Shown here: piece after piece, positions 20,790 to 37,939 of the stretch | Layout: each line of letters opens with the position of its first letter | How positions within the stretch are numbered: the first letter of the stretch is position 1 | NCBI GenBank assembly: GCA_031963045.1 | Contig: JASSUK010000042.1 | Location: 1,030 to 65,029 of the forward strand | Direction: 5' to 3' | Origin: Mycoavidus cysteinexigens | GTDB lineage: Bacteria; Pseudomonadota; Gammaproteobacteria; Burkholderiales; Burkholderiaceae | Length of the DNA stretch: 64,000 bases | The notes under the pieces: generated by a model | What the model saw: only the letters and a program-made list of their open reading frames with translations | The model's database searches: none | What the model was told of the DNA's origin: nothing | Position numbers and translations under genes: made by a program

Positions 20790-22400
20790 TTAACATGGAT
20801 AGTAGGCATACAAGCATTTGTAACTTTGTTAGGTTTTGGCGACGCTAGCAGTTTTATCTTGCGCAGGCATTAGCCAATGGATCTGAGGCTCAAACGCGTA
20901 ACTTGGCAGTGTGATCTTGCGTCCTCTACCGGACGCTACCGCTTGCCAGTTAATTGTGGCCCCATGTTCATATAGCTTCGCCAGAGCCTTTTTTGTATAT
21001 ATACCTGCAAAGCGCCTTCTAGTACTACTTCGCAATGGCGGCTATCTGTTTTTGCAATTTTTCTAAGCATGTCTAGTGCTTTTGAATGTGCTGAAAAATT
21101 GGATGTACTATCAGGGTTAGGCATGAAAATCTCCCTTATAAAGAATGGAATCATTCGGTGCAGCTAAAACGATTCGTTCAATAATAAGATAATATTTCCG
21201 ATGCTATGACTGTGAAAATGGGTATGGAAGCCATTTGAGCATCATTCAATTATGGTAGTCAAGAAGAAAAAGGGAAGTTTGGCACGTGGGTCAGATTCAT
21301 CCATCATTCTCTGCAGGCCACCTGGTGTCGGAATCACTTTATTCGCACGAAACCGTATTCCGTGCATATTCGCAAAGGCAGTCGGGTTGCACGCTATCCT
21401 GAGAGCGCTTTTGCTAAGGCTAACGAATGGGAAAAAATTCTGATTAAGCTGGTTGAGGATCGATATGCATTGTTGCGACAGCGTTCAGCTGTATTGAGCC
21501 GATTGCGTGCTGTGCTCACGGAGTATGAACGTTTATTGGCAAGGGGCTTTGTCAGGTGCTCTGAAGATAGGTAGATAAAAATACAGCAGGTTTTTAGCGT
21601 ATACATTCGCTTCTTAAAAAAACCAACCCGAATTCTACAGCTTATAAATTGACAGCTCCCTCTTAAGGCGCAACAAGCGCGTTGTGTACGCTTTGCTCAA
21701 TTTATGCCTTCCTATGCCTTCCTACTATTTTTAATGCACGCGCCGCTGTGTTTTCCCCTTCCTGAAAAACTATAGGTATCACCCGATTCCTGCCACCCCT
21801 TCTTATATCTAGTATTCGCATGAACCCCATTTCCTGTCTCGCGCTTCACCTCGGATTAAGTGTAATAGGATGTGCGCTGGTCGTTCATGAGCGTGGCTGT
21901 TTTGCCTGACATAAGAAGTTGGCCTGGCACATTTCTCATTGTTTGCTTGAGACTGCGGATGATTAAAAAATAAAACGAATGAGGACAACCCTGCTGTCAC
22001 GTGTCACGGCAAAGATAGTGGAGTCTTGGCAACCTAAAGCAAGCGCGTTAGACCGTGCAAAAACGCGTCTGGAACAAGCAAAAGAGCAGAAAGAAGAAGG
22101 GAAGAAACGACGACGCATTGGGGAGCCTGATTTCAAGCTAAAGCTGCTCTCAAAACGCATCTTAAAGGTGGCGTGCAAATAGTCGAAACAAGACGTCTAC
22201 TGGCAGAACTCCAGCAGATGCGTGCGAAGATTTTGCCATTAACCCAAGATTTTACGTTCGACGAAGGACGTCAAAGCTATCTCAAAGCGCAAACCTATTC
22301 TCCTGACACGGCACAACAAGCAGAAATCCAAGCCCTTCTTGACGATTTACCTCGCGCTCCTCTATCAATCACTATAAATAGAGCATCTACGCTACCGCCT

Positions 22401-22451
22401 TCTGCTGTACCTGCTGTACCTGCTGTGCCTGCTGTGCCTGCTGTGCCTGTG
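22401..22451 (+). repeat. 9-bp tandem repeat (CCTGCTGTR, about 5.5 units) encoding (PAV)n
   Basis: Read directly: tctgctgta cctgctgta cctgctgtg cctgctgtg cctgctgtg cctgtg. Confidence 0.85.
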
Positions 22452-22771
22452 TTGACAACAGGTTTGCCTACCTCCTTTTTATGCCATCCTCGTTGCTTTC
22501 GCCGGTCTTTCGCCGGTGACGCAGGATTATCAGCTCGTGGGGTCTGATGAGATTAAAAATGCGCGACATCTTGCGTGGTGTTTACAACAAACGCATTACG
22601 ATACCGCGCAATACAAACAGCTATCCGCACTCGCGCGTGAGGTCATAGAACGCTTTGGTTAGCGCGCCGGCAAAGATTTAGTCTGTCTGCAAGAAGCGGC
22701 AGAATTAGCGGTAGTCCCTTCTTTATCCAGGATGCCATTGTTAGGCGTAGGCCCCCGAGCAGGAGAAAAAA

Positions 22772-25700
22772 TTGAATTCATTGGGTATCTTCAGCGCCGG
22801 AGGGCGTCCGCTATTGCCAGTCACATTTCCACAGCGCCAGCCGCAAGCGGGGAATCAAGAAAAAGCCCAAAAATCGTACGGAGATGGGGTAGAGAAGGCT
22901 AAAACTGAACATGAAAAAAATCCTGGTGATCCGCAAGCAAAACAAAACTTAGATGCGATACGTAACAAATACTTCCCTTTTTTTAGTGGGCTTCAAGAGC
23001 CTGGTGCAGCGTTTAACCAGGAAAAAAGCAAGCAGGTGGATTATCTGTTTAAAAAGGCACTATCGACGCTAAGATCCTTAGCGGTACCGAATAAACCCAG
23101 CCTTTTTCTGGTGTATGCCCACGACAATCCCGCTCACGCCGAAAAGGCCGAGGCCAATATTTCTAGTTATTTAATCAATGAGTTATCTCAAATCCGAGCC
23201 AACCTGTATTCGGATCAAACGCCGATGGGGAAACCGTATTTGAGCTCCCCGGAAGATTTAAAAAAGGACGGTAAGTTAGAAGATATCTTAACCAGTCAGC
23301 TTTGTTTATTGCCCGATCAGTTGCGAGACGATGTAAAACCGGTCGATAAGGTCGTGGTGTGTTGTTCTGAGTTATTAGGAAGGTACTTGAGATGGCCGCA
23401 CTATGAAAAGTTTTACCAACAAATTCAAGAAGCCTATTTCAAAGATCGAGAAGCCTATCGCAAAAATGACGCACACGCCGGCACTTCGGCAATACGTCAA
23501 GTGGTCAGACAATTCTCCCAAGAAGAAGCCTATAAGGCGGATTTTCATCATGTATTGACGGAAATGGCTTTTTTGCAAATCCGGGCCGAGCACTCGGAAG
23601 CGCAGCACGGCATTATCCCGATTTCGTTAACCATAAATAGCTATCAACAATGCCTGGCGCATTTTATTCCAGCGACCACGGTGCGCATGGAGGATATTCT
23701 CCGATTTGAGGTGCAAGCCAAATCGGGAATAGAGGTATATCCGAATCAAAGTCGGCACTTGCTGCTGTTTAAGCTGATCGAGCGGCTGTTAGTGGGCAGC
23801 AATGAGGCCCAAACGTTTCTTGGCAAGTTTTGGCATGGGTATAACGATTGCATTAAATCTTCAGCGCTTGGCACACTTGAGTTTGCCAATTTATTAGATG
23901 GCATTTTTGCTGACATAGACAGAGAGCTGCGCAACCAGCTTGTTCTTAATGTACAGGAACAACAGCGTAAAGAACTGGAATCGAAGAAAGAGCCGCTTGC
24001 GATCTTAGGCGAAAACATCAAAAAAGAATATTTCACGACGTGGCGAAACCTGGTGGAAATTCAAGATGGCCTGGCGATGTATGTTGCACTGGAATGCAGC
24101 TTCATTACCAATACAAAAGAGCGCTTTAGTTTAGAAGAGAAGGTGAAAGAGTTTCTTGTTTCAGGAGAAAAAAAAGTACTGCTTTTATTGGGCGAAGCCG
24201 GTTCTGGAAAATCAACATTTAACCGGTATTTGGCGCGTAGTCTATGGGAAACGTATGACAAGGAAACCAATAAATCTAGCCAAACTCCTATTCCTTTATT
24301 TATTCCGCTATCGAGCTTGAAAGAGCCTAATGATAATCTTATTGCCGAATATCTTATAAAAATGGGGCTTAAAAAAAGCCAGATTGCTGATTTAAAAGAA
24401 AATTATCGCTTTATTTTTATTTTGGATGGGTATGATGAAATCAAAGATCGAACCCGCCTATTCTACATCGAAAATAAACTGGATCAATGGAAAGCCAAAG
24501 TCATCATTACCAGTCGGCCAGAATATTTTGGCAATGGATATGAGTGCCAGTTCCATCCAAAAGGCCAGGCATATTTACTCCAGGCATATCGACTCTCTCC
24601 ATTTTCTGATTTGACGATTGAGGAGTATGTAAACAAATACAAAAACGCGTACCCAGAATTAGAGAAAAATATCGTAGAGCATGGAGAGATTCTGAAGCAA
24701 CCCGAAGTTAAAGAGTTGGTACGCAATCCATTTTTGCTTAAGATGGCCTTGAGTGAATTGCCTGCTTTGAGCCAGAAATACAAGAATAGCGGACAGCGTA
24801 TTACCCGAATTGCGTTATATGATCAATTTGTAGAGAGCTGGTTTAAGCGTTCCCAGGATCGATTGAGAGATATTCGCTTAACTCACGCAGAGCAGAAGGC
24901 ATTTGATTTTTTAAACAAAGCCTTTATTAGGCATGGAACAAAATTCAGCAAAGATTTAGCGATAGCGATGTATCAAGCTGGATTGGTGAGTGTGGCGTAT
25001 TCTGAGCAACTCTCCTATGATCAGTCTGATGCTGTAGAGAAAGATTGGCGAGATAAATTTTTAAGTGATCGTAATGAACAAGTTAAGTTATTGCGCTTTA
25101 ATGCTCCGCTGATATGCCAAGATGACCGATATCAGTTTATTCATAAATCGATTCAGGATTATTTAGTTGCGCGAGCCATGTGGGAAGAGCTGGAAAACGC
25201 AAGCGAACGCGATGCCTCCAGTGGTGCTGAGCCGCTGAACGAGATAAAAAATGTGCGCCTGATATGGGAGGCATTGGACCCTGCCATTCAAGTCGATACC
25301 ACCGCATTATTGAACCGATTCAATTTAGTGGAGGAGCTAGCCGTCCAGAGTTTTTTAGTCGAGCGAGTCCAGCAGAACCGAGCGTTGGTGAAGCTCCTGT
25401 TGACGTGGATCAAAGCCTCAACGAGCCAAGATACTGTGAGTACAGCCGCGGCGAATGCGATCACGATCTTGGTTAGAGCAGGAGTGCAGTTTAATGGAAT
25501 GGATTTACAAGGAATTCAGATTCTGGGTGCAGATCTGAGCTATGGCGTATTTGACTCTGTACAGTTGCAAGGTGCAGATCTCAGCAAGACGAACTTAACT
25601 GGCATATGGTTGCGCAACGCAGGTTTAACGGGGGCGTGCATGGAGGGCGTGCAGTTTGGGGAATTACCGAGCTTGCAGTTGGAAGAATCTGTGGATGCTT

Positions 25701-27775
25701 GCTGCTATTCGCCCGATGGGCGCTACTTAGTGGCTGCATTAGGAGCAGGCCTCTGGTCTGGACCAGGGAGGATTGCGCTGTATGAGGTCGAGACGTTAGC
25801 GCATGTGCATACGTTCGAAGGGCATACCAGCCTGGTGACAAGTGTCGCTTTCTCACCCGATGGCCAAACGCTGGCCTCGGGCAGTGATGACAAAATGGTG
25901 CGGTTGTGGTCGGTCGCCGAGAAAAAGCCGTTGCACACGTTCGAAGGGCATATCAACAAGGTGACAAGTGTCGCGTTCTCGCCCGATGGCCAAATGCTGG
26001 CTTCCTGCAGTGGGTACGACCCAGTGCAGCTGTGGTTGCCGTGGCACATGTTCGGCGAGCATAGCCAAACGCTGGCTTCGGGCAGTGGAGATAATACGGT
26101 GCGGCTGTGGTCGGTCGTTGAGAAAAAGCCGTTGCACACGTTCGAAGGATATAGCAGTTATGTGACAAGCGTCGCGTTCTCACCTGATGGCCAAACGCTG
26201 GCCTTGGGCAGTGGAGATAATACGGTGCGGCTGTGGTCGGTCGCTGAGAAAAAGCTGTTGCACACGTTCGAAGGACATAGCGGTTACGTGACCAGCGTCG
26301 CGTTCTCGCCCGATGGCCAAACGCTGGCATCGGGCAGTGATGACGATACGGTGCGGCTGTGGTCGGTCGCCGAGAAAGAGCCGTTGCACACGTTCAAAGG
26401 GCATACTAGCGGGGTGAAAAGCGTCGCGTTCTCGCCCGATGGCCAAACGCTAGCCTCGGGCAGTGTGGACGATACGGTGCGGCTGTGGTCAGTCGCTGAG
26501 AAAAAGCCGTTGCACATGTTCGAAGGGCATATCAGCCTGGTGACAAGCGTCGCGTTCTCAAGCAATGGCCAAACATTAGCCTCCGGCAGTATAGACGGGA
26601 CGGTGCGGCTGTGGTCGGTCGCCGAGAAAAAGCCGTTGCACACGTTTGAAGAGCATACCGACTATGCGACCAGCGTCGCGTTCTCGCCCGATGGCCAAAT
26701 GCTGGCATCGGGCAGTCGTGACAAGACGATGCGGCTGTGGTCGGTCGCCGAGAAAAAGCTGTGGCACACGTTCGAAGGACATATAGGTTATGTGACCAGC
26801 GTCGCGTTCTCAAGCAATGGCCAAACACTGGCCTCCGGCAGTATAGACAATACGATGCGGCTGTGGTCGGTCGCTGAGAAAAAGTCGTTGCACACGTTCA
26901 AACATACCCACCGGGTGACCAGCGTCGCGTTCTCGCCCGATGGCCAAATGCTGGCATCGGGCAGCGGGGACAATACGATGCGGCTGTGGTCGGTCGCCGA
27001 GAAAAAGCTGTGGCACACGTTCGAAGGACATAGCAGTTATGTGGCAAGCGTCGTGTTCTCGCCCGATGGCCAAACGCTGGCCTCGGGCAGCTATGACAAT
27101 ACGGTGCGGCTGTGGTCGGTCGCTGAGAAAAAGCCGTTGCACACGTTCAAAGAACATACCCACTATGCGACCAGCGTCGCGTTCTCAAGCGATGGCAAAA
27201 CACTGGCCTCGGGCAGTAGGGACAAGACGGTGCGGCTGTGGTCAATAGCCGAGAAAAAACCGCTGCACACGCTCAAAGGACATACCTACGAGGCGACCAG
27301 CGTCGCGTTCTCGCCCGATGACCAGACGCTGGCCTCGGGGAGTGGGGACCATACGGTGCGGCTGTGGTCGACGACTTCAGGACAATGTTTAACCGTGATT
27401 CAAGGTTTTAATGGGGCCGTCAACTCTGTTGCTTGGTACGAGAGCGCTGAAGGAGTCTGGCTGGCAACGGGAAGTAGTGACAAAGCGATACGCCTTTGGA
27501 AAGTGCATCGGGATGGTGAGATGTGCCGCGTGACATTACACTGGGCCTCAGCACAAACAACATTAACGACACCAGGGATGTCCATTCAAGATGTGATCGG
27601 ACTCAGCGCGAAGAATATCGAACTACTCAAACAACGCGGTGCAAAGGGAGAGCCACACTATACTGAGGAGCAAGAAGCGCGGCCATTGCTAACAGAAAGA
27701 GCAGAAGCACCAGCATTCACGCTACCTGCCCAAGCTGGTAACCGCTATGGATCGACTTATCTCAATTTCGCTTGA
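22772..27775 (+). CDS. NLR-like STAND NTPase, paralog 2: SEFIR/TIR-like N-terminal domain, NACHT, pentapeptide repeats, about 14 WD40 blades
   Basis: 1667-aa ORF. TTG start with SD AGGAGA (22761-22766) 5 nt upstream. SLFLVYAHDN...KVVVCCSELL is SEFIR/TIR-like. Walker A LLLLGEAGSGKST and Walker B FIFILDGYDEI. Pentapeptide tract GADLSYGVFDSVQLQGADLSKTNLTGIWLRNAGLTGACMEGVQF. 42-aa WD40 units (GH..VTSVAFSPDGQTLASGS.D.TVRLWS). Confidence 0.9.
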   Translation: MNSLGIFSAGGRPLLPVTFPQRQPQAGNQEKAQKSYGDGVEKAKTEHEKNPGDPQAKQNLDAIRNKYFPFFSGLQEPGAAFNQEKSKQVDYLFKKALSTLRSLAVPNKPSLFLVYAHDNPAHAEKAEANISSYLINELSQIRANLYSDQTPMGKPYLSSPEDLKKDGKLEDILTSQLCLLPDQLRDDVKPVDKVVVCCSELLGRYLRWPHYEKFYQQIQEAYFKDREAYRKNDAHAGTSAIRQVVRQFSQEEAYKADFHHVLTEMAFLQIRAEHSEAQHGIIPISLTINSYQQCLAHFIPATTVRMEDILRFEVQAKSGIEVYPNQSRHLLLFKLIERLLVGSNEAQTFLGKFWHGYNDCIKSSALGTLEFANLLDGIFADIDRELRNQLVLNVQEQQRKELESKKEPLAILGENIKKEYFTTWRNLVEIQDGLAMYVALECSFITNTKERFSLEEKVKEFLVSGEKKVLLLLGEAGSGKSTFNRYLARSLWETYDKETNKSSQTPIPLFIPLSSLKEPNDNLIAEYLIKMGLKKSQIADLKENYRFIFILDGYDEIKDRTRLFYIENKLDQWKAKVIITSRPEYFGNGYECQFHPKGQAYLLQAYRLSPFSDLTIEEYVNKYKNAYPELEKNIVEHGEILKQPEVKELVRNPFLLKMALSELPALSQKYKNSGQRITRIALYDQFVESWFKRSQDRLRDIRLTHAEQKAFDFLNKAFIRHGTKFSKDLAIAMYQAGLVSVAYSEQLSYDQSDAVEKDWRDKFLSDRNEQVKLLRFNAPLICQDDRYQFIHKSIQDYLVARAMWEELENASERDASSGAEPLNEIKNVRLIWEALDPAIQVDTTALLNRFNLVEELAVQSFLVERVQQNRALVKLLLTWIKASTSQDTVSTAAANAITILVRAGVQFNGMDLQGIQILGADLSYGVFDSVQLQGADLSKTNLTGIWLRNAGLTGACMEGVQFGELPSLQLEESVDACCYSPDGRYLVAALGAGLWSGPGRIALYEVETLAHVHTFEGHTSLVTSVAFSPDGQTLASGSDDKMVRLWSVAEKKPLHTFEGHINKVTSVAFSPDGQMLASCSGYDPVQLWLPWHMFGEHSQTLASGSGDNTVRLWSVVEKKPLHTFEGYSSYVTSVAFSPDGQTLALGSGDNTVRLWSVAEKKLLHTFEGHSGYVTSVAFSPDGQTLASGSDDDTVRLWSVAEKEPLHTFKGHTSGVKSVAFSPDGQTLASGSVDDTVRLWSVAEKKPLHMFEGHISLVTSVAFSSNGQTLASGSIDGTVRLWSVAEKKPLHTFEEHTDYATSVAFSPDGQMLASGSRDKTMRLWSVAEKKLWHTFEGHIGYVTSVAFSSNGQTLASGSIDNTMRLWSVAEKKSLHTFKHTHRVTSVAFSPDGQMLASGSGDNTMRLWSVAEKKLWHTFEGHSSYVASVVFSPDGQTLASGSYDNTVRLWSVAEKKPLHTFKEHTHYATSVAFSSDGKTLASGSRDKTVRLWSIAEKKPLHTLKGHTYEATSVAFSPDDQTLASGSGDHTVRLWSTTSGQCLTVIQGFNGAVNSVAWYESAEGVWLATGSSDKAIRLWKVHRDGEMCRVTLHWASAQTTLTTPGMSIQDVIGLSAKNIELLKQRGAKGEPHYTEEQEARPLLTERAEAPAFTLPAQAGNRYGSTYLNFA
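25800..27370 (+). repeat. array of about 12 near-identical 126-bp (42-codon) tandem repeats encoding WD40 blades
   Basis: GTGCGGCTGTGGTCGGTCGCCGAGAAAAAGCCGTTGCACACGTTCGAAGG recurs every 126 nt (26099, 26225, 26351, 26477, 26603 and onward). One unit is 123 nt and one is collapsed. Confidence 0.9.
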
Positions 27776-28220
27776 AAACGAGCGAGTCAGCGTGCATTTG
27801 AAATGGTTTAACCTAAATAGAGATATTCCTTTGCCAGAGGGGCGGTTGATAATTGTCTATCATGGCTTCTACCCAATTGACGATGTGGCTCGGCGTAGGC
27901 CAACCATTGGAGCCACAAATCGTGAGTTCCATCATTTGGCCATGGGCATTCTGACTGCTGAGACAACCAACCCCGACATAGACAATCCTATTCGTCGGTC
28001 GACTTATATGTTCTCTTGTGCAGGTCCAGACCGAGTTCACATGATGCCGATCAACCATCCCTTCTTATCCAAGCTGAACGATCACGGCCAACCCGACCCT
28101 AACGGATCGCATATCGTTCTGTTCTCGATTATTGGGAGTCCGGCAAGCTGGAAATACAGGGACGACCGACGGAATCAAGGGGATTGTATGTTTCTTTTGC
28201 GGCTGCGGGGTACAGGATGA
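27747..28220 (+). CDS. hypothetical protein (157 aa) overlapping the 3' end of the NACHT-WD40 gene
   Basis: The ATG at 27747 lies 29 nt inside the preceding ORF. No recognisable motif. Overlapping alternative frames downstream suggest possible decay. Confidence 0.4.
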   Translation: MDRLISISLENERVSVHLKWFNLNRDIPLPEGRLIIVYHGFYPIDDVARRRPTIGATNREFHHLAMGILTAETTNPDIDNPIRRSTYMFSCAGPDRVHMMPINHPFLSKLNDHGQPDPNGSHIVLFSIIGSPASWKYRDDRRNQGDCMFLLRLRGTG

Positions 28221-28394
28221 CGATCAGCCCCAGCAGCACTCGATATACGCCCCTCCGCCGAGCGATAACAGTTATACCCAGTCGTCAACCACTAGTTTGG
28301 CTCCATCAGTGGTCAGTCAAGCATCGGGTGGTTCCGTGCCGGCGCATACCGCCTCCGCCAAATACATTGCACAGAGTGACACAATCTTTCCCAG

Positions 28395-28428
28395 AACCCG
28401 AACAGCTATAAGGCTTTTCGGGTTTTTT
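28395..28428 (+). terminator. Rho-independent terminator-like hairpin plus T-run
   Basis: AACCCGAA...TTCGGGTT followed by TTTT. It is a near-copy of the hairpin downstream of tRNA-Arg. Confidence 0.6.
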
Positions 28429-29111
28429 ATTGCCCAAAGTACCTCTACCTCAATCAGTAAAGCGCATAGAAAAACGGATACGTTCGAAAAACAAAAAGCT
28501 TGGAAAGAATGCAGCAAGACCAGGTGCAATTTGAAATAGCCGTCAATCAAGGGAAGCAATCGATAGCCACCTATTTACAGCAACACGCACACAAAGTAGA
28601 TCATGCTGCCCGCATATAGGCGATTCAAGAGCATTTTGCACAACCTGCCAATGTGCAGTTTACAAACCTATCAGCCAACACAGTGGGAGCATGCCATAAG
28701 TGGATGTATGAACAGATCCGCACTGCTCCTGCGCCCCGCAGCATGCCAATGCCTCTGCGCAGTAGCCCCGCAGCGCTGTGGCAACCTGGTATCTCCACAC
28801 AAATCGCGCCTGCAGATCGGTTAGCGCAGCGTATGGAGGCAATGGGGTTGTAACAAGATTTACTTTTGCTATGCAGCAGACAGCTCATTTTTAAGCTTTG
28901 ATTGAAGTAGTGCTTTTCTGTGTCTTTGTCTTCTTGCAATGGCTCTTTGAGGGGAGTTTTTTAAAAGGTTAAGAGATATGCATAATGCTCCATTTCATCT
29001 TGCGATCGTAGGATCTACACGAAAAAATAGGAGCGTGGAGGTTATATGGACTTCCTTTATTACCTTTAGTGCGTTTCTATTTTTAATAAGTCGAAATAAT
29101 CTATTTTATGC

Positions 29112-30578
29112 CTACCTATTTTTTAATATTTTGTCAACGCCATCTATATATTTTCTTATGCTTTCTTGTTGCATAGGGCTATCACCGCTTGCAAAGTAGC
29201 TAAGGAATTCGTTTTTATATCTCTTTTCATTTCTCCAATGAAAAATATAAAATGCTATTACTTTTTCTTTTCTTTCTTTGGCAGCCTCTATATATTCTAT
29301 AGAGGTATTTATTTTGTTTTTGCAGTTTTTAAAAGATTCTTTTAAATATTTTTTCAAGTCAACTATGTCTTTTGGAATTTTTTCGGTGTCGAGCATGCCT
29401 GTAAAATGTTGACTTATGATTGAATTTTGCATGTCTTTTGTTTTTTTAAAACGTGTCTGATTTTTTTGTTTTTCTTTCAATTTTTTAGTCAAATCCTTAC
29501 AAGGTTTAATGCCATCTAATGGTTGATTTTTTAACATTGTGTCAAGTCCACTTGTATATCTTTTTATGCTTTCTTCCTTTATAGGGCTATCATCACTTGC
29601 AAAGCAGCTAATGAATTTTTTGTTATATCCCTTTTGATTTCTCCAATGAAAAATATAAAACGCCATTATTTTTTCTCCATTTTCTTTTGTGGCTTTTATA
29701 TATTCCTGAGAGGCAGTGTTTTTACTTGTAAATTTTTCCAAAGATTCTTTTAATGACTTTTTCAAGTCATCTATATTTTTTTGTATTTTTGCGGCATCTA
29801 GTGTGCCTGTATAATATTGATATATGATTGAATTTTGCATGCTTTTTATTTTTTTTAAACGTGTCTGATTTTGTTGCCTTTCTTTATCTTTTTTAATCAA
29901 ATGCCGAGGAGTTTTAATGACATTTAAGGAGTGGTTAAAAAGATAGTGATTCTCTTCACGCGAATGAGTATTTGCATTAAAATCATGTCCTGCTATAGGA
30001 GTGTACTGTAAAGCATTTTGACCTATTTCATCATGCAAATTGGTAGATACATCATGTATTTCTATATTTTTCTGACGATCAGGAGTAGTTTGAAAAATCA
30101 AGCTATTTTCTAGATTATGACCTGATGGCATTAATGGAGTATCTGTGTATCCTGCATCAAAGGGATATCCACTATATTGAAAAGGTTGACTTATCTCTAA
30201 TTGAAATGGAAGTTGAGGAGGCGTAGAAACTTCTGCTGGAATAAAAGTATCGCCAACATCCGGAAAAAGGTTAAATAAATCTGGATAATCTTTATCTATA
30301 TCAAACTGTGTTGGCCCTAATGGGTTGGCACTCGATTCATTAGAAATATCATCATGCGAAGGGGATCCTAATTTTTGCCGTTTTCTATTAGGATTTTTAT
30401 TAAGGCTATCATTCCCTCGCTTATTGCTTGAAGATAGGGCCGCTGGCAATGGAGTAAGTCCGTTAAACGGAACACTTGTCCCTTGACTATGCTGTGGGGG
30501 AGATGGAATACTTTCTCCAGGATAAGGAAACTGCTGCATATTCCATTCTTGGGAAACATACACTATGGACTTAACCAT
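29112..30578 (-). CDS. hypothetical protein (up to 488 aa) with a P/S-rich N-terminus, an NLS-like basic patch and two about 125-aa tandem repeats; effector candidate
   Basis: NPNRKRQKLGSP patch. Repeat 1 (...KERQQNQTRLKKIKSMQNSIIYQYYTG...AFYIFHWRNQKGYNKKFISCFASDDSP) and repeat 2 (...KEKQKNQTRFKKTKDMQNSIISQHFTG...AFYIFHWRNEKRYKNEFLSYFASGDSP). Start uncertain (MQQFPYPG is an alternative). Confidence 0.7.
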   Translation of the reverse strand: MVKSIVYVSQEWNMQQFPYPGESIPSPPQHSQGTSVPFNGLTPLPAALSSSNKRGNDSLNKNPNRKRQKLGSPSHDDISNESSANPLGPTQFDIDKDYPDLFNLFPDVGDTFIPAEVSTPPQLPFQLEISQPFQYSGYPFDAGYTDTPLMPSGHNLENSLIFQTTPDRQKNIEIHDVSTNLHDEIGQNALQYTPIAGHDFNANTHSREENHYLFNHSLNVIKTPRHLIKKDKERQQNQTRLKKIKSMQNSIIYQYYTGTLDAAKIQKNIDDLKKSLKESLEKFTSKNTASQEYIKATKENGEKIMAFYIFHWRNQKGYNKKFISCFASDDSPIKEESIKRYTSGLDTMLKNQPLDGIKPCKDLTKKLKEKQKNQTRFKKTKDMQNSIISQHFTGMLDTEKIPKDIVDLKKYLKESFKNCKNKINTSIEYIEAAKERKEKVIAFYIFHWRNEKRYKNEFLSYFASGDSPMQQESIRKYIDGVDKILKNR

Positions 30579-32458
30579 GATGCGCGCGCTCTATAAATAT
30601 GTATATTGTTTAATAGGTGTAATGTTTTACAGTCAACCTGTATGTACCTCCTATTAAATACGATGGCGTGCGCTATCCTCACACCTTTTGCGTAATATCC
30701 TGCTATAAAACGAAACACGCCCTCTACTGTAGAGCACTGCCCTTCTGTTTTGCTTTTGTCTACCGTATACAAAATAATTAAAATTTCTATAAAAATACCC
30801 CAGTAATTGAAATAGCGCGCGCACTTCCTTTTGCAAAGAATCTTTTACTTCCCAACCAGTAGACTGAATCGCTGAAAGTTGAGCATCGTGTGCGGCAGCT
30901 AGTGGGTAAAAAGCAAAGATTACCCACCGCAATACGTCCCTGTTATCGCCGGGGTCGCGTCCGGTAGCGCTTTTCCTCACACACTATTCATAAAAATAGA
31001 TTGCAATGGAGTTTTACTCTTGCAAATGCTGTGAGCATTCGTTTTCCCGTGCGGGGTCGGTGTGGAAAGTAGGCCGTTTATGACGTGCAGGATTTTTTCT
31101 CTTGGCAGCTAAAACGGTCATGATGCTTTTTCCACTGGACCTTTTATATGCCCATCTCTGCACATGATTTCTGCGAACTCACCAAAGTCTCGCTCGACGA
31201 CTATTTACGCAATATCCCCATTGATTAAATCGGTATGGAGCGCCCGCTCCTTAAACGCTGCCTTTCTAAACGCAAACTCTTCTTTGGTGCACGCCAACAT
31301 ATTGTGGAGAACGTGCGTAAAGACTATGGGAGCCATTTTGCGTTGGCCTATGGCGAAACGCCGGTCGAATTTAATAAGCGCCATACGACGGAGCAAGTCC
31401 AAGTTCCGTGGCGATGCGCCGTAGATGGATTGTATTTGGATTACGACCGTCTCTTTGGTGATTGACGTACGCGAAGGCAATTTACTGTATGCAATCGCCT
31501 CTGCCAAAGCACATTACAGGCATGCCGATGCCGTTATAGCTGGTAAAGCGTTTGATGCATTACTGCGAGAATATCAAAGCCGACAACATGGGCAACGGCG
31601 CTATTTTATAAGTGAGTGTGGCTATGCCGACCATCACGTTTTATCGCTTTGATTTAGGGATTGATTGGCGTAAAGGCGAATCGGTATCGGATGCCAATCG
31701 TTTACCTGAAATGTGCAATGAGTATGTAACCACAGTCCTGGCTGCACAAAAGCGCCCTGGTCTGGTCAGAGTGGCGATTTTAGAGTCAGGAACCAGCGGC
31801 CTTTTTGCGGCAGGTGGAAAACTGCATATGTTTTATGGGGAAGGACAGATTACGCATACAGATACACGCTTTGTAGCGCACAAGGTGACGCGCCCAAAAG
31901 GATAGCAAGCTTATTAGCACCGAGCTGTACTGGGCGCGCCTTTGCATTGCGATTTACCCACAAGGATAACCAACCCTTTAGGCTAGATGCGGTGACTGTG
32001 GCCTATTATCACTCTCTAAATTTTCATTGTACATTTCCAAATTTTCTGGCAAATCAATGCCTCTCAAATAAAAAACATTTAACTGTAATTATTTTTGTAT
32101 TAATGAAAAATATTAAATACTAATTAATATAAAGACAACAGAGTTTTTATGCAGCTACGATTTTTAATTTTTCCTGGCTCATTGAATATGCACTTTGCGC
32201 GCTTAGTACCGCTGTTTGAGCAGGTAGTGCGGAAAGCTGTGCACGGAGAATTTAGTATCGAAGACTTGTATCTCTTGGCACAGCAGGATCGCATCATACT
32301 AAGAATGGTTGAGCAAGACGCTCAAGTGCAATTTGTATTCGCTTTTGAATTTATTGCGTATCTGCGATTTACTGCCATCAATATTTTGGCGCTGGCCGGG
32401 CGAGGGTTAGGAGTGTAGTATGCATTTTTCCTTTCTGAAGTATTTTATCAGCTGATTA

Positions 32459-32821
32459 TTAAATTTGATGATTTTGAATAGAATAATAATTTTCTATAAA
32501 ATCGGCATACATGCCTAAAATCACAGCCAATACCAAAAGAACGAAGGTAGAAGTTCCCATAAGTTGACCTAGAGATATGCAAGTAATTAATCCTAAGCAG
32601 AAAAGTAATATCGTTACTACATTTTCTAGCGTATCGGCCTGCCTAACTTTAGGGTGTCGCTCAGAGGTAATAGGGTTCTGGCAAACATTTTTATTTTCAA
32701 GAGAAGGATCATCGTTTACTGTGCTGCCATCTCCTTTTTTAATTTCTTCTGCTTCATGGTGAGTATGAAGTAAGGCGTTGGCAAAAGTAGGTTGCGCCTG
32801 TATAGAACCTGCAGAATTCAT
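32459..32821 (-). CDS. small membrane protein (120 aa) with a bilobed hydrophobic hairpin
   Basis: VVTILLFCLGLITCISLG-QLMGTS-TFVLLVLAVILGMYA. Confidence 0.5.
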   Translation of the reverse strand: MNSAGSIQAQPTFANALLHTHHEAEEIKKGDGSTVNDDPSLENKNVCQNPITSERHPKVRQADTLENVVTILLFCLGLITCISLGQLMGTSTFVLLVLAVILGMYADFIENYYSIQNHQI

Positions 32822-32947
32822 GCTTATTCCCCATAGATACTAGGCAGCAGCAAAGAATGAATGATAAAAACGTGGATACATCGTATTAAATAACGGCCCT
32901 TTTATAATTCTAAGGGCCACTTTATAAGGTATATTTTAAATAGCTAA

Positions 32948-34513
32948 CTAGGCTATAAGGGCTTGAATAGCAGCTTTTTGTCTTGCATTCTCTATTTCAA
33001 GATTTCTAGCATGTTCTACTAAAGCCTTAATCCTCGCATTTTTTTCTGCTTTTCTTTGCGCTCTTGCTTGTTTGAGTCGCGCTTTTTCTTCTACTGTTAG
33101 CACTTCATCAGACTCTGATTCTGAATCAGAAGAAAGGAGTTCCTCAATATTAGGTTCTTTAAAAATAGTAGGTTCAGCCTTTCCTTTACCTTTAAGCGTA
33201 GATGAAGCATGGTGTTGAAAAACGGGGCTATCTTCCTCTTCTATTTCAGGACTAGGGAACCGCCCAATAATGGGTGAGGCAGAAGCACTCGAGGAATTTG
33301 AAGTTAATGAACTGAATGAGGTTTTACGTACTCTTGGTTGGTAATTGACAAGCGTTTTCGTTGATTCTTGTCCTTCCCCAGAGAGCGTAATGGCTGGTCG
33401 CGTTGCGGAGCCCTGTGCTAAAAGCAGCTGCTGTTCAAGAGGGAGAAGGTATTTTGGGTCGACAACCTGAATTACGTTTTGGACGTAAGTATTATGGGTG
33501 ATGGCAGGTGGAGCGTTATCAATTTTTTGCTCTAAGCGCTGATTCTGATTTTCAAGGCGAACAAGGGTACCTTTAATATCCGTAGTATCTTGTTTAATCT
33601 GAAAAATAGCGCTGATCATGTCGTTTAGTATTTTCATATAGGAGCCTATTACTTCCCGTCGAAGTATAAGCACGTCATTATTTTTGGCATGACGTTTATC
33701 TGAGCTTATAAAGTTAACAAATCTAATTACTGCCATCGCAATAGAAACCACAATGGACACGCAACATATAAACAATGGTAGTTGCAGACCAATCCCCACC
33801 GCCGTTACAACGCCTGCAATAGTGCAAATCACCGTTTCTGTTCGAGGAATGGAAAGGAAATATTTTACCAGAGAGGTCGTATGTGAGTCCTCTTCTTGCT
33901 CTATGGCAGATAGTTTTTGGTCCAGGGCCTGCACCTGTTGAATTAAACCCATTGATGCAAGCTCAGTACCCGTTTCCTGCATTTCTATTGAAATGGGCAG
34001 CTCTTTTTGGTTTTCTTCAGGCGCACTATCGAGCAATGCATAAATCTTCTGCTGCTCTGCATAAATAGCTTGTAATTCTTCCTGAATGCGTGGGTATTCG
34101 TGCTCTTGCTCTTCGGGTGCTAACGCATTAAAACCGGTATGTAATTCATTAGCTTTTTCAGAAAGTGCTTCTAGCGTCTCAGAAAGCTGAAGCCCATAAA
34201 GTATTAGAGACCCCATCTGAAGTAAGAAAGAATCCTCTTTGTCTTTCTCTGCGTCAGAAAGCAATCTATTCTTATACCATCGCGCGAGGCACGCAACGGA
34301 ATCCGTTGAAGTGCGATTATGGAATAGTTTACTTAACGGAGCACGCTTACTGGTAAGTATTTTTTGTTTCTGAACAGCGCTCTTCGAACCTTCAGAACGG
34401 TTTCTAAAAAGCTGACCTGCATCAAAAATCGTAGGACTGAGCGATATAAGCATAAGGAAACTACCTTTGCATCTAGATATTAGACTTATCCGAGCTTTTG
34501 ATAGTGATGACAT
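32948..34513 (-). CDS. coiled-coil membrane protein (521 aa) with a central bilobed hydrophobic hairpin; Inc-like effector candidate
   Basis: VICTIAGVVTAVGIGL-QLP-LFICCVSIVVSIAMAVIRFV is flanked by long helical/coiled-coil stretches. Acidic/Ser-rich and K-rich C-terminus. Confidence 0.7.
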   Translation of the reverse strand: MSSLSKARISLISRCKGSFLMLISLSPTIFDAGQLFRNRSEGSKSAVQKQKILTSKRAPLSKLFHNRTSTDSVACLARWYKNRLLSDAEKDKEDSFLLQMGSLILYGLQLSETLEALSEKANELHTGFNALAPEEQEHEYPRIQEELQAIYAEQQKIYALLDSAPEENQKELPISIEMQETGTELASMGLIQQVQALDQKLSAIEQEEDSHTTSLVKYFLSIPRTETVICTIAGVVTAVGIGLQLPLFICCVSIVVSIAMAVIRFVNFISSDKRHAKNNDVLILRREVIGSYMKILNDMISAIFQIKQDTTDIKGTLVRLENQNQRLEQKIDNAPPAITHNTYVQNVIQVVDPKYLLPLEQQLLLAQGSATRPAITLSGEGQESTKTLVNYQPRVRKTSFSSLTSNSSSASASPIIGRFPSPEIEEEDSPVFQHHASSTLKGKGKAEPTIFKEPNIEELLSSDSESESDEVLTVEEKARLKQARAQRKAEKNARIKALVEHARNLEIENARQKAAIQALIA

Positions 34514-35107
34514 TTATGCAGAAAATATAGAGGGCTAGGCCGTATATGTGAGTTCTACCAATGCTGTATTTATGGAGCAGTCATCCATCTAAAATAGAAC
34601 CCTTCTTATTTTAGCGATGCAAAAAAATACCCCACTAAACCACAGTGAGGCAGAAATCTCCTCCAGCAATGAAGAAGTGATAGTTGTTCTTCGAACTCTC
34701 GATAGCCGCGCAATAATGCTCCCCAGAAGTAGTCAAGCCATGGTTTGATGTCATGCTGCCCTTGGTGCTGCTAATGGTATCGTTGTTGGTCGCCTTCCAG
34801 CGTCTGCCTGGCTGCGGCATATAGCGATATAGCAAGGTATGCGTCCCGTTGGCGATATTTCGAGGGAAAGAGCGATATCTTCGGAGCTAGAGTGGGGCAG
34901 TGCAGAAATAGTCGACATCGGATTCATTCGTCATGCTGGGGAATTTGGAAAGGTATAATGTACTATTAACTTGTCTGAAGTGATGGGTGGAAATCTAAAA
35001 GCCTGCATAACTATCCTGTTCTGCGGGCTTTTTGTCGCAAAAATGAAGCAGCGCGCGTTATAGGGCGCAATGTTCCTCGCAAGGGAACGCACTTTTTATA
35101 AAAAAGG

Positions 35108-35671: not shown

Positions 35672-35706
35672 TTTTTCTGCCTTGTGTTTTTTCTGTTGGA
35701 GTTGGT

Positions 35707-37783: not shown

Positions 37784-37939
37784 GGTTTTATCCAGTTTTT
37801 TTAAAAAACTTCGCTTTGGATTTGCATTTTGTGATAGGTTTTTCGCCGCTACATGCTAAAGAATATTATACAATTTTTGATTAGGAACCAAGAAGACCGA
37901 TATGTATAGTCTTCTTGGTTATGAAAATTTACTCTCATT

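What the first reader, a model, noticed from the sequence alone, without database searches (positions are those of the whole stretch)
25800..27370. Near-identical 126-bp WD40 coding repeats with substitutions focused on a few codons
About 12 consecutive blades are almost identical at nucleotide level, which implies concerted evolution or recent unequal recombination. The differences cluster at the same codons in each unit. They fall in the 3-4 residues after (E/K)(G/E)H (TSLV, INKV, SSYV, SGYV, TSGV, ISLV, TDYA, IGYV, THRV, THYA, TYEA) and at GS-x-D-x-T (DDK, GDN, DDD, VDD, IDG, RDK, IDN, YDN, GDH). These positions map to the top-face loops of a beta-propeller. The same pattern is described for fungal HET-E/NWD NLR repeats as a generator of recognition diversity. 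The array is also visibly more GC-rich than the AT-rich neighbouring genes.
Basis: partly seen in the sequence, partly recalled or inferred. Interest (0 to 1): 0.7.

Follow-up and report, generated by a model that had tools for sequence, protein, structure and literature searches.

The report
Hypervariable WD40 sensor of bacterial NLR
The repeat array encodes the double beta-propeller "sensor" of an NLR-like (NACHT) receptor in a bacterium related to endosymbionts of Mortierella-type fungi, and its blades vary at the same ligand-contacting positions as fungal HET-E/NWD immune receptors, which makes it a clear bacterial example of an already known design.

Summary
Window 25802-27385 holds 126-bp WD40 units inside a 1667-aa ORF (22772-27775, +). 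Eleven units are well conserved and one further pair carries in-frame deletions. The units are about 81% identical at nucleotide level (67-90%) and 74% at protein level, so they are not near-identical. Synonymous divergence between units is pS about 0.27-0.30, so they are not recent copies.

Amino-acid changes do cluster. Five codons chosen beforehand from paralogues hold 41% of non-synonymous differences, against 12% expected. In an AlphaFold model they lie in the d-a loop, the start of strand a and the b-c turn. These are the canonical WD40 top-face hotspots. After a +1 register shift they are the codons under diversifying selection in Podospora HET-E/HET-D.

The protein has an N-terminal domain (possibly TIR/SEFIR-like), NACHT, pentapeptide repeats and about 14 blades. 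It belongs to a family greatly expanded in Mycoavidus-like endofungal Burkholderiaceae, with 196 related stretches in the species-representative genomes. Across 21 arrays (236 units) the hotspot codons show omega 2.2-4.0 and the framework is below 1.

The architecture, highly repetitive bacterial WD40 arrays and hotspot variability are all published. This is a new member of a known kind. A side observation is unexplained: GC3 is 0.72 in the array and 0.43-0.48 in the rest of the gene.

The parts
22772..27775 (+). Whole NLR-like gene (1667 aa): N-terminal domain, NACHT, pentapeptide repeats, about 14 WD40 blades. TTG start preceded by AGGAGA 5 nt upstream.
   Evidence: ORF list and translation. 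The exact protein is present in the NCBI-derived collection as P0001. Pfam domains.
22772..24091 (+). N-terminal domain (about 440 aa), the presumed effector or signalling module. It has a mixed alpha/beta core (strands LFLVY, VVVCCS) and is tentatively TIR/SEFIR-like.
   Evidence: No Pfam hit even at E <= 10. AF2 model pLDDT 74. Only weak Foldseek matches (E 0.05-3.4, probability up to 0.94) to SPARTA TIR-APAZ, the ACT1/IL-17R SEFIR assembly and PdTIR. The domain is conserved at 50-68% in 38 paralogues.
24176..24646 (+). NACHT NTPase domain (residues 469-625). Walker A GEAGSGKST is at 24191-24217. Walker B-like FIFILDGYDE is intact.
   Evidence: Pfam PF05729, E 3.1e-12, 47.1 bits against a cut-off of 26.7. 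GxxGxGKST and DGxDE are invariant in alignment A1.
25484..25651 (+). Pentapeptide-repeat linker between the NOD module and the propellers.
   Evidence: Pfam Pentapeptide, residues 927-960, E 3e-6. NCBIfam pentapeptide models match residues 905-959. The model shows single-residue beta bridges every 5 residues.
25652..25801 (+). Divergent first blade (CCYSPDGRYLVAAL...), not part of the homogeneous array.
   Evidence: Translation. Modelled as beta strands. GC3 of 25472-25801 is 0.52.
25802..27385 (+). Homogeneous 126-bp WD40 array. Unit starts are 25802, 25928, (truncated unit), 26129, 26255, 26381, 26507, 26633, 26759, 26885, 27008, 27134 and 27260. For a unit starting at s, the hypervariable codons are s+24..s+32 (codons 9-11), s+84..s+86 (codon 29) and s+90..s+92 (codon 31). 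Codon 13 (s+36..s+38) is hypervariable in paralogues but mostly Thr here.
   Evidence: TRF, register, identity matrix, per-codon table, clustering test, secondary-structure mapping, GC3 0.718.
25928..26128 (+). Damaged stretch: unit 2 plus a truncated unit 3. Relative to the consensus there are two in-frame deletions (15 nt after about 26036, 36 nt after about 26063) and several substitutions (ASCSGYDPVQLWLPWHMFGEHSQ).
   Evidence: Alignment to two consensus units. TRF reports a 201-bp period here. pLDDT is below 50 at model residues 174-196.
26885..27007 (+). Unit of 123 bp. A 3-nt deletion removes the Gly of the G-H motif (HTFK-HTHRV).
   Evidence: Anchor spacing is 41 instead of 42 residues. 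Gapped alignment.
27386..27544 (+). Divergent terminal blade(s) (CLTVIQGFNGAVNSVAWYES...AIRLWKV) that close the second propeller. About 30% nucleotide identity to the array units.
   Evidence: Strands are modelled to model residue 692. GC3 of 27386-27772 is 0.44.
27545..27772 (+). C-terminal tail. The first part is conserved in paralogues (GLS..N..LLKQRGA) and the end is disordered.
   Evidence: Consensus of alignment A2. pLDDT is below 50 at model residues 737-767.

Best explanation
The array encodes the ligand-sensing double beta-propeller (about 14 blades, two 7-bladed rings) of a bacterial NLR-like STAND NTPase. The architecture is an N-terminal effector-type domain, NACHT, pentapeptide repeats and WD40. 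The host is a Burkholderiaceae bacterium of the endofungal Mycoavidus group.

Shown:
- The blades descend from one 42-codon unit.
- Framework codons are under purifying selection (dN/dS about 0.3), and units are somewhat more alike within the array than between arrays.
- Amino-acid diversity is concentrated on five or six codons per blade that form the top-face loops.
- Across the gene family those codons evolve with omega 2-4. They carry a binding-site-like residue mix rich in Trp, Asn, Asp, Ser, His and Tyr. Almost every blade has a unique combination.
- The gene is a mosaic of N-terminal, NACHT and WD modules whose closest relatives are different paralogues.

Inferred:
- The combinatorial top surface binds a non-self or modified-self ligand.
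- Binding releases the NACHT module to oligomerise and activates the N-terminal domain, as in fungal HET-E/NWD, Apaf-1 and bacterial Avs/bNACHT receptors.
- Unit duplication, deletion and exchange by unequal recombination or gene conversion, together with selection for diversity at hotspot codons, generate new specificities.
- This copy is an older, partly eroded array rather than a freshly amplified one.
For: Domains: WD40 E 2.4e-166 in 13 stretches. NACHT E 3.1e-12 and pentapeptide. Walker A and B are invariant in alignment A1.

Fold: the AF2 model has pLDDT 85.9 with about 56 strands, consistent with 14 blades. The best PDB match is 2ymu_A, the 'highly repetitive propeller' of Nostoc Npun_R6612 (E 1e-57, 45% identity), followed by double-propeller proteins including Apaf-1 (TM up to 0.60).

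Site clustering in this array. Mapping to the d-a loop, the start of strand a and the b-c turn. The hotspot definition comes from PMC3419727.

Family:
- 223 homologues at E <= 1e-5, the named ones from Mycoavidus, Glomeribacter or an endosymbiont of Mortierella (one is filed under the fungus Linnemannia gamsii).
- 196 related stretches in the species-representative genomes. The best 80 are all in Mycoavidus-labelled MAGs, and at least 25 are in one genome, BRE-AD073.
- Within-protein entropy peaks at positions 10, 11, 13, 29 and 31 in 56 proteins.
- Pooled pairwise dN/dS is 3.07 at those codons and 0.45 elsewhere in 20 arrays.
- Tree-based counts over 21 arrays and 236 units give omega 3.0, 3.75, 3.2, 4.0 and 2.2 (p = 0.0025, 1.5e-5, 7e-7, 2e-8, 0.0085).
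- Trp is 5.5-fold and Asn 3-fold enriched at the hotspots, and 621 units carry 581 distinct hotspot 5-mers.

Homogenisation: framework pS is 0.269 within the array and 0.36-0.43 to arrays of the same repeat type. Eight of ten units have their nearest unit in their own array.

Module mosaic.

Literature: the NACHT-PPR-WD40 architecture of Mycoavidus and Mortierellomycota NLRs (PMC11291939); the fungal hotspot positions (PMC12222747).
Against: No ligand, no activity and no phenotype is known for any member of this family. Function is inferred by analogy.

For this array alone, selection for diversity is not significant. Pairwise dN/dS at the hotspots is 0.69-1.17 and the tree-based counts are small.

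Pairwise and parsimony dN/dS on recombining repeats is approximate, and homogenisation of flanking sites can inflate omega.

The array shows damage: two in-frame deletions, a 3-nt deletion in a GH motif, H8 to Y, and S26 to L or C. The first propeller may therefore be impaired.

PADLOC has no model that recognises the protein as a defence system. It gives only a WD-repeat match to HEAT-ARM_XIII and marginal hits.

The identity of the N-terminal domain is weak.

Repeat-number polymorphism, a hallmark of the fungal systems, could not be tested. The closest genome (BRE-AM1000) breaks its contig before this region, and no orthologue was found.
Confidence: 0.75

Rival explanations
1. This is an ageing array under relaxed constraint. 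The variable codons are simply the least constrained surface-loop positions of a WD40 blade. The pattern reflects neutral drift on a formerly amplified array that is now eroding in a reductive endosymbiont genome, without ongoing adaptive diversification in this copy.
For: In this array dN/dS at the hotspot codons is about 1 (0.69 with the a-priori set, 1.17 with the set chosen from this array). Units differ by pS about 0.27-0.30, so amplification is old. The array carries in-frame deletions and a damaged GH motif. Its internal identity (0.74 aa) is below that of many paralogues (0.80-0.85).
Against: Pooled over 21 arrays, the same codons have omega 2.2-4.0 with significant non-synonymous excess. 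Their residue composition is strongly non-random, with Trp enriched 5.5-fold. The 5-kb ORF is intact and its framework dN/dS is about 0.3. Bottom-face loops are equally exposed yet stay conserved.
Confidence: 0.15
2. The protein acts not inside the bacterium but in the fungal host. It would be an NLR-like protein exported, for example by the Hrp-type type III secretion system encoded 11 kb downstream, to mimic, decoy or interfere with the host's own NACHT-pentapeptide-WD40 receptors or to bind variable host targets.
For: A complete Hrp2-type T3SS cluster lies at 38.9-59.8 kb of the same window. Mortierellomycota NLRs share this architecture and are the best reciprocal hits of Mycoavidus proteins (PMC11291939). 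The family is greatly expanded in obligate endofungal genomes of 2-3 Mb.
Against: No secretion signal or chaperone was identified or tested. A 185-kDa multi-propeller protein is an unusual T3SS substrate. Proximity of 11 kb with unrelated genes in between (pyrophosphatase, NAD synthase) is weak evidence. Related STAND-WD40 proteins in free-living bacteria are cytoplasmic sensors (PMC13581612).
Confidence: 0.07
3. The array length or content is an assembly artefact, that is, collapsed, expanded or chimeric repeats in a short-read metagenome-assembled genome.
For: The nearest relatives are short-read MAGs, some at about 4x coverage. Fungal HIC WD40 arrays are known to be mis-assembled from Illumina data (PMC12222747). 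The odd 201-bp junction could in principle be a mis-join.
Against: Units differ by 10-33%. The longest exact repeat is 58 bp and no 77-mer recurs. The reading frame is preserved across 5 kb, including both deletions. The blade count of about 14 fits two 7-bladed propellers, as in paralogues.
Confidence: 0.03

Closest known systems
Podospora anserina HNWD/NWD NLRs (HET-E, HET-D, HET-R and NWD paralogues)
   Same: A NACHT plus a C-terminal array of 42-residue WD40 repeats with conserved framework. Hypervariable codons are at GH-xxx-V-x-SV and GS-x-D-x-T (fungal positions 10, 11, 12, 14, 30, 32, equal to mine plus 1), mapping to the top face. A double-propeller sensor is predicted. Repeat exchange occurs within and between paralogues, and N-terminal modules are assorted combinatorially (PMC12222747, PMC4986451).
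   Different: The host is bacterial. There is no HET domain; the N-terminus is a different, unannotated domain. A pentapeptide-repeat linker is present. Internal identity is lower here (74% aa, 81% nt) than the >85% used to define fungal HIC repeats. Fungal site 39 (my 38) is not hypervariable here. Repeat-number polymorphism and allorecognition function were not shown.
Mycoavidus / Mortierellomycota NACHT-PPR-WD40 NOD-like receptors (Ciach et al. 2024, Evol Lett; Wojciechowski et al. 2022)
   Same: The same domain order. The closest homologues (50-75% per module) are Mycoavidus and Glomeribacter proteins. The second NLR in the window has the ARM-like helical N-terminus, which may correspond to the helical domain that those authors describe as shared with Mortierellomycetes.
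   Different: Those papers report the architecture and a proposed bacterium-to-fungus transfer. In the passages I read they do not describe repeat-level hypervariability. This genome is a divergent lineage: its NadE is only 56-57% identical to Mycoavidus proper.
WRAP propeller of Nostoc punctiforme Npun_R6612 and other highly repetitive prokaryotic WD40 proteins (PDB 2YMU; Dunin-Horkawicz 2014; Hu et al. 2017; Pereira and Lupas 2022)
   Same: The best structural match (E 1e-57, 45% identity). It has 14 blades forming two 7-bladed propellers at the C-terminus of a STAND ATPase. Disrupted or decaying blades are common, and hotspot sites are the diverse ones in highly repetitive WD40s (PMC9218822, PMC5587647).
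   Different: Npun_R6612 blades are nearly identical with no synonymous differences, indicating very recent amplification. Here pS between units is about 0.27-0.30. The phylum, lifestyle and N-terminal and linker modules all differ.
Apaf-1 / bacterial anti-phage STAND receptors (Avs, bNACHT)
   Same: A STAND NTPase with a C-terminal repeat sensor. Apaf-1's two propellers align with the model (TM up to 0.60). WD40-propeller sensors are recorded among prokaryotic defence-associated STANDs (PMC13581612).
   Different: No defence phenotype, defence-island context or PADLOC assignment here. Characterised Avs and bNACHT sensors are mostly TPR-like and are not built of homogenised hypervariable repeats.

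Membership tests
WD40 beta-propeller repeats | Repeated units of about 42 residues with GH / WD-like motifs that match WD40 profiles and fold into 4-stranded blades | tested here: met
   Pfam WD40 E 2.4e-166 in 13 stretches. The AF2 model has 4 strands per unit and pLDDT 85.9. Foldseek hits are to propellers.
NACHT-clade STAND NTPase (NLR-like) | NACHT domain with Walker A (GxxxxGKS/T) and Walker B (hhhhD[GAS]xDE) | tested here: met
   PF05729 at 47.1 bits against a cut-off of 26.7, residues 469-625. GEAGSGKST and FILDGYDE are invariant in A1.
NLR tripartite architecture | N-terminal effector or signalling domain, central NOD, and C-terminal superstructure-forming repeats | tested here: met
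   The order N-terminal domain (1-440), NACHT, pentapeptide, WD40 is shown. The nature of the effector is unresolved.
Mycoavidus/Mortierellomycota NACHT-PPR-WD40 NLR family | NACHT followed by pentapeptide repeats and WD40, with closest homologues in Mycoavidus-type endobacteria | tested here: met
   Pentapeptide Pfam E 3e-6. Homologues are 50-75% identical per module, and the named ones are almost all from Mycoavidus, Glomeribacter or Mortierella endosymbionts. The architecture is named in PMC11291939.
Fungal HIC (high internal conservation) NLR repeats sensu Dyrka et al. 2014 | More than 85% identity between repeats over at least 100 aa | tested here: not met
   Mean aa identity is 0.74 and the maximum is 0.83 between units. 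Mean nt identity is 0.81. Several paralogues do reach 0.80-0.85 mean, with pairs at 1.0.
Highly-Repetitive WD40 sensu Hu et al. 2017 | [quoted passage not shown] | tested here: inconclusive
   The mean over 10 units is 0.74, but the minimum pair is 0.55. The exact pairing rule of the published definition was not reproduced.
HNWD-type diversification (HET-E/HET-D-like) | Hypervariable codons under diversifying selection at top-face positions (fungal 10, 11, 12, 14, 30, 32, 39) | tested here: met
   The same structural positions were found for six of the seven fungal sites. For the family, omega is 2.2-4.0 with p from 0.0085 to 2e-8. For this array alone there is clustering (P < 5e-6), but omega is not significantly above 1.
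HNWD-type diversification (HET-E/HET-D-like) | Repeat-number and repeat-content polymorphism between individuals | not testable with these tools
   No orthologue in another genome. The next best full-length relative is 55-58% identical. The closest genome's contig ends before the locus. The metagenome scan found only a 68% relative.
HNWD family proper | N-terminal HET cell-death domain | tested here: not met
   No Pfam family at E <= 10 in residues 1-440 other than two chance-level hits.
TIR/SEFIR-domain effector NLRs | N-terminal flavodoxin-like TIR/SEFIR fold with a catalytic or assembly surface | tested here: inconclusive
   Foldseek E 0.05-3.4, probability up to 0.94, TM about 0.2 to SPARTA TIR-APAZ, the ACT1 SEFIR complex and PdTIR. 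No sequence-level match to these in the PDB or in Pfam.
Experimentally defined anti-phage STAND systems (Avs, bNACHT) | Match to a curated defence-system model, or demonstrated phage protection | tested here: not met
   PADLOC gives only a WD-repeat match to HEAT-ARM_XIII and marginal PDC-M16A hits (E about 0.004). Protection cannot be tested here.
DGR-diversified sensors | Nearby reverse transcriptase and a template/variable repeat pair with adenine-specific changes | tested here: not met
   No reverse transcriptase among 29 window ORFs (28 of the 33 with at least 150 aa) scanned against Pfam. The variation is between tandem units, not between a TR/VR pair.

The most novel reading that the evidence does not exclude
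Endofungal Burkholderiaceae keep a large, modular, fast-diversifying repertoire of NLR-like receptors. There are dozens of genes of about 5 kb in a genome of 2-3 Mb, and nearly every blade carries a unique combination of hotspot residues. The repeat cassettes are shuffled among paralogues and may be shared by horizontal transfer with the fungal host. Bacterium and fungus would then draw on one inter-kingdom pool of recognition modules that mediates partner recognition or control in the symbiosis. In addition, homogenisation of the cassettes may be accompanied by GC-biased gene conversion, which would explain GC3 of 0.72 in an AT-leaning genome.
Probability: 0.12. Interest if true: 0.8.

Novelty: new member of a known kind. 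Interest (0 to 1): 0.42.

Why it matters
Bacterial NLR-like proteins with internally conserved repeats have been suggested to diversify like fungal NLRs. The Dyrka et al. [quoted passage not shown]

This locus and its roughly 200 relatives give a compact data set. In it, six of the seven fungal diversifying-selection sites correspond to hypervariable codons, and five of them show omega above 1 in a bacterium that lives inside a fungus whose own NLRs share the architecture.

That makes three questions testable:
- whether these receptors act in phage defence, in symbiont-host recognition, or both;
- in which direction the modules moved between kingdoms;
- whether repeat homogenisation leaves a GC-biased signature in bacteria.

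For genome annotation, the locus is a reminder that such arrays are real coding sequence and prone to mis-assembly.

Tried and rejected
1. Strain comparison of repeat number was not possible. The exact protein has no gene record in the contig index and its 90% cluster has one member. The nearest genome, BRE-AM1000 (NadE 97%), ends its contig 635 nt upstream of ppa, before the NLR region. The metagenome scan returned a single 68% relative.

2. Mapping on 3-D coordinates was not possible because model files are not exposed to the script environment. I used DSSP per unit plus the canonical WD40 topology instead.

3. Identity of the N-terminal domain was pursued with Pfam at E <= 10, a PDB sequence search and a Foldseek PDB search. 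Only weak TIR/SEFIR-like fold hits came back, so it is left as tentative.

4. PADLOC and NCBIfam gave no informative assignment.

5. GC-biased gene conversion as the explanation of GC3 is not established.
- The correlation with internal identity (r = 0.74) is partly phylogenetic non-independence, because 16 of the high-identity arrays share one repeat type.
- Three of seven repeat types show almost no GC3 excess.
- The minority-allele spectrum is symmetric.

6. The promoter and terminator scan around the gene found no more sites than chance.

7. Minus-strand ORFs of 88-138 aa that overlap the array are treated as by-products of a periodic GC-rich sequence. The plus frame carries the WD40 signal.

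8. A DGR mechanism was rejected because there is no reverse transcriptase and no TR/VR pair.

Full report
**1. What is at the coordinates**

Tandem Repeats Finder reports a 126-bp period at 26064-27370 (10.4 copies, 82% matches, no indels, score 1627). It also reports a further 1.8 copies at 25806-36036 region, precisely 25806-26036, and a 201-bp row that marks an irregular junction.

The array lies in frame in one long ORF, 22772-27775 on the + strand, 1667 aa. A TTG start is preceded by AGGAGA.

Units can be laid in a 42-codon register starting P-L-H-T-F-E-G-H. Their starts are 25802, 25928, 26129, 26255, 26381, 26507, 26633, 26759, 26885, 27008, 27134 and 27260. A divergent last blade follows at 27386.

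Two irregularities exist.
- Units 2 and 3 are fused by two in-frame deletions (15 and 36 nt) relative to the consensus.
- The unit at 26885 lacks 3 nt and thereby loses the Gly of GH.

The units are not near-identical.
- Mean pairwise nucleotide identity is 0.81 (0.67-0.90).
- Mean amino-acid identity is 0.74.
- Synonymous difference between units is pS about 0.27-0.30.

The longest exact repeat in the array is 58 bp and no 77-mer recurs. A collapse or expansion artefact is therefore unlikely, although reads were not available.

**2. Is the clustering of substitutions real?**

Per-codon counts show high diversity at codons 1, 9, 10, 11, 29 and 31. Many framework codons are invariant in amino acid yet differ synonymously.

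To avoid circularity I defined hotspot codons from paralogues (10, 11, 13, 29, 31; see section 4).
- In the window array they hold 41% of non-synonymous pairwise differences against 12% expected.
- They hold 19 of 48 extra amino-acid states (P < 5e-6).
- dN/dS in this array is 0.69 for the a-priori set and 1.17 for the set chosen from this array, against about 0.3 for the rest.
- Tree-based counts give 1.7, 2.35, 0.6, 2.6 and 2.1 at codons 10, 11, 13, 29 and 31, but on small numbers.

The clustering is solid. Positive selection cannot be claimed from this array alone.

**3. What the protein is**

- Pfam finds WD40 (E 2.4e-166, 13 stretches).
- In the first 1000 residues it finds a NACHT domain (residues 469-625, 47.1 bits against a cut-off of 26.7) and pentapeptide repeats (927-960).
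- Walker A (GEAGSGKST) and the DGYDE Walker B region are intact and invariant among relatives.
- Residues 1-440 match no Pfam family.
- An AlphaFold2 model of residues 1-440 (pLDDT 74) has a mixed alpha/beta core. It gives only weak Foldseek matches to TIR-APAZ of SPARTA, the ACT1/IL-17R SEFIR assembly and PdTIR (E 0.05-3.4).
- A TIR/SEFIR-like effector is therefore a lead, not a result. It is consistent with the remark in PMC9815663 that SEFIR/TIR-like NLR N-termini have homologues in Mycoavidus.

The AlphaFold2 model of residues 900-1667 has mean pLDDT 85.9. It has about 56 strands, which fits roughly 14 blades. The deletion scar (model residues 174-196) is unmodelled.

Its best PDB match is 2ymu_A, the 'highly repetitive propeller' (E 1e-57, 45% identity). 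Other double-propeller proteins follow, including Apaf-1.

Per unit, the model gives the following layout:
- strand d at positions 42/1-5
- d-a loop at 6-11
- strand a at 12-17
- a-b loop at 18-22
- strand b at 23-28
- b-c turn at 29-31
- strand c at 32-37
- c-d loop at 38-41

The variable codons are therefore in the d-a loop, at the start of strand a and in the b-c turn. In the WD40 meander these lie on one face. The opposite-face loops (SPDGQ, VAEK) are conserved.

With the V-R1-R2-V rule of Wu et al. 2012, position 13 is R1, position 11 is R1-2 and position 29 is D-1. These are the three canonical top-face interaction hotspots (PMC3419727).

**4. The family**

The protein is present as P0001 in the NCBI-derived collection. 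The next best full-length relatives are only 50-58% identical. The named ones come from Mycoavidus cysteinexigens, Mycoavidus sp., Glomeribacter sp. or an endosymbiont of Mortierella elongata, apart from one record filed under the fungus Linnemannia gamsii. Many share the same 2.2-3.0 Mb contigs, which marks them as paralogues.

A scan of species-representative genomes with a NACHT alignment found 196 related stretches. The best 80 are all in Mycoavidus-labelled MAGs ('BRE' isolates), and at least 25 are in one genome.

- In 56 proteins with at least 9 units and at least 65% internal identity, within-protein entropy peaks sharply at positions 10, 11, 13, 29 and 31.
- At DNA level, 20 arrays with at least 75% internal identity give pooled pairwise dN/dS of 3.07 at these five codons and 0.45 at the other 37.
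- A parsimony count on neighbour-joining trees of units (21 arrays, 236 units) gives omega relative to the array-wide synonymous rate of 3.0, 3.75, 3.2, 4.0 and 2.2. The site-wise binomial p values are 0.0025, 1.5e-5, 7e-7, 2e-8 and 0.0085.
- Hotspot residues are enriched in Trp (5.5-fold), Asn (3-fold), Asp, Ser, His and Tyr, and depleted in aliphatic residues.
- The 621 units carry 581 different hotspot 5-mers.

These methods are approximate for recombining repeats, but the contrast is large and consistent.

**5. Concerted evolution and modularity**

Arrays of the same repeat type (...VRLWSVAEKKPLHTFEGH...) occur in three neighbouring paralogues of MAG BRE-AV005 (L043, L065, L066) and in P0035, P0073 and P0107.
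- Framework pS is 0.269 within the window array and 0.36-0.43 to those arrays. Eight of ten window units have their nearest unit in their own array.
- Between L043 and L065 the between-array pS (0.237) lies between the two within-array values, and most L043 units are closest to units of another array.
- This indicates array-specific amplification or homogenisation plus exchange between neighbouring paralogues. For the window array, none of it is recent.

The gene itself is a three-way mosaic.
- Its N-terminal domain is closest (66-68%) to one set of paralogues.
- Its NACHT is closest (69-75%) to a set that lacks this N-terminus.
- Its WD region is closest (71-75%) to a third set, whose NACHT is only 34-38% identical.

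**6. Organism and neighbourhood**

The window is bacterial. It carries a complete Hrp2-type type III secretion cluster at 38.9-59.8 kb. It also carries a second NLR-like gene at 807-6575 (ARM-like, NACHT, pentapeptide, WD40). That gene's repeats are diverged, at about 35% aa identity (three motif-matched units) and GC3 0.36.

NadE is 97% identical to that of MAG BRE-AM1000 (GCA_031963365.1), with conserved synteny. It is only 56-57% identical to other Mycoavidus and Paraburkholderia. This is a divergent endofungal Burkholderiaceae lineage.

**7. Comparison with what is known**

- The fungal HNWD genes (het-e, het-d and relatives) have WD40 repeats kept alike by concerted evolution, with diversifying selection at positions 10, 11, 12, 14, 30, 32 and 39 on the interaction surface (PMC12222747; also PMC4986451). 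With their register equal to mine plus 1, six of the seven sites coincide with the hotspots found here.
- Highly repetitive WD40 arrays in prokaryotic STAND proteins are known (PMC9218822), as is diversity at predicted hotspot sites (PMC5587647).
- The NACHT-PPR-WD40 architecture of Mycoavidus, and its sharing with Mortierellomycota, is published (PMC11291939).
- In the papers I could search, I did not find a codon-level demonstration for bacterial NLR arrays, or any repeat-level description for Mycoavidus. Dyrka et al. (2020 preprint) only say bacterial arrays 'might similarly' diversify.

The finding is therefore a new member of a known kind. The family-wide site-specific signal is a modest addition.

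**8. Mechanism, with steps marked**

Shown:
- domain architecture
- propeller fold
- location and statistics of the variable codons
- purifying selection on the framework
- modest within-array homogenisation
- module mosaicism
- family expansion

Inferred from characterised relatives (HET-E/D, Apaf-1, Avs/bNACHT):
- The hypervariable top face binds a ligand.
- Binding licenses NACHT-mediated oligomerisation.
- The N-terminal domain executes the response.

Unknown:
- the ligand (phage, fungal or bacterial)
- the cellular compartment of action
- whether this particular, partly eroded copy is still active

**9. Side observation: GC3**

GC3 is 0.718 in the homogeneous array. It is 0.48 in the N-terminal region, 0.43 in the NACHT region, 0.44 in the divergent last blade and tail, and 0.22-0.47 in other genes of the window. 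Amino-acid composition or expression level of the gene therefore cannot explain it.

- Over 46 paralogous arrays, the GC3 excess over the upstream part of the same ORF correlates with internal identity (r = 0.74).
- Sixteen of the high-identity arrays share one repeat type, however, and three of seven repeat types show almost no excess.
- Minority alleles at synonymous sites are symmetric.

GC-biased gene conversion, a GC3-rich founder blade and a foreign origin all remain possible.

**10. Verdict**

The biology is interesting but largely anticipated by the literature on fungal NLRs and prokaryotic highly repetitive WD40 proteins.

Noticed in passing
window 25802-27385 versus 22772-25471 and 27386-27772; loci L001-L078: GC3 is 0.72 in the homogeneous repeat units but 0.43-0.48 in the rest of the same gene. 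In 46 paralogous arrays the GC3 excess tracks internal repeat identity (r = 0.74), though not for every repeat type. The cause is unresolved: biased gene conversion, a GC3-rich founder blade, or foreign origin.
   Followed up: partly
window 807-6575 (+): A second NLR-like gene (1922 aa) with an ARM-like helical N-terminus (PF23948), NACHT, pentapeptide repeats and WD40. Its repeats are diverged (about 35% aa identity, irregular spacing, GC3 0.36). It serves as an 'old array' control next to the homogeneous one.
   Followed up: partly
window 38930-59811: A complete Hrp2-type type III secretion gene cluster: HrpB1, FliP/HrcR, HrcQ, HpaP, HrcV, HrcU, HrpB2, HrcJ, HrpB4, HrcL, HrcN and the HrcC secretin. 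It lies 11 kb downstream of the NLR gene and is syntenic in MAG BRE-AM1000 (L079).
   Followed up: partly
window 22772-27775 compared with P0004-P0113: The focal protein is a three-module mosaic. The closest relatives of its N-terminal domain, its NACHT and its WD region are three different sets of paralogues (66-68%, 69-75% and 71-75% identity). This indicates recombination between family members.
   Followed up: yes
window 35707-37470 (NadE); L079: The housekeeping protein NadE is 97% identical to MAG BRE-AM1000, which is labelled Mycoavidus cysteinexigens. It is only 56-57% identical to other Mycoavidus and Paraburkholderia. The lineage looks much more divergent than its NCBI label suggests.
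   Followed up: partly
window 37688-38488: A 400-bp unit is present twice in tandem at 95% identity, between NAD synthase and the first T3SS gene. Its coding status was not examined.
   Followed up: no
window 29112-30578 (-), repeat at 29118-29902: An AT-rich ORF (GC 0.32, 488 aa, no Pfam hit) contains an internal 408-bp duplication at 79% identity.
   Followed up: no
window 17171-18400 (-), repeats at 17426-17839: A HEAT-repeat protein whose 96-bp (32-codon) units are still detectable as DNA tandem repeats (71-77% matches).
   Followed up: no
window 22402-22449, in ORF 22173-22547 (+): A 9-bp repeat (CTGCTGTGC, 5.3 copies) encodes a (PAV)n stretch in a small ORF just upstream of the NLR gene.
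   Followed up: no
window 14123-15535 (-): An ORF with HTH_32, HTH_23 and HTH_28 domains, resembling a transposase, lies between the two NLR-like genes.
   Followed up: no
L043, L065, L066 (BRE-AV005 scaffold_1, 1.63-1.68 Mb): Three paralogues with the same repeat type as the window array lie within about 50 kb of each other. Many units of one array are closest to units of a neighbouring array, which suggests repeat exchange between adjacent paralogues.
   Followed up: partly
P0025 / L080 (Linnemannia gamsii assembly JAAAIN010000022.1): A family member is annotated as a fungal protein, at the end of a 62-kb contig. A bacterial-type NadE is also filed under L. gamsii (P0167). These may be endosymbiont contigs inside fungal assemblies rather than transferred genes.
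   Followed up: partly
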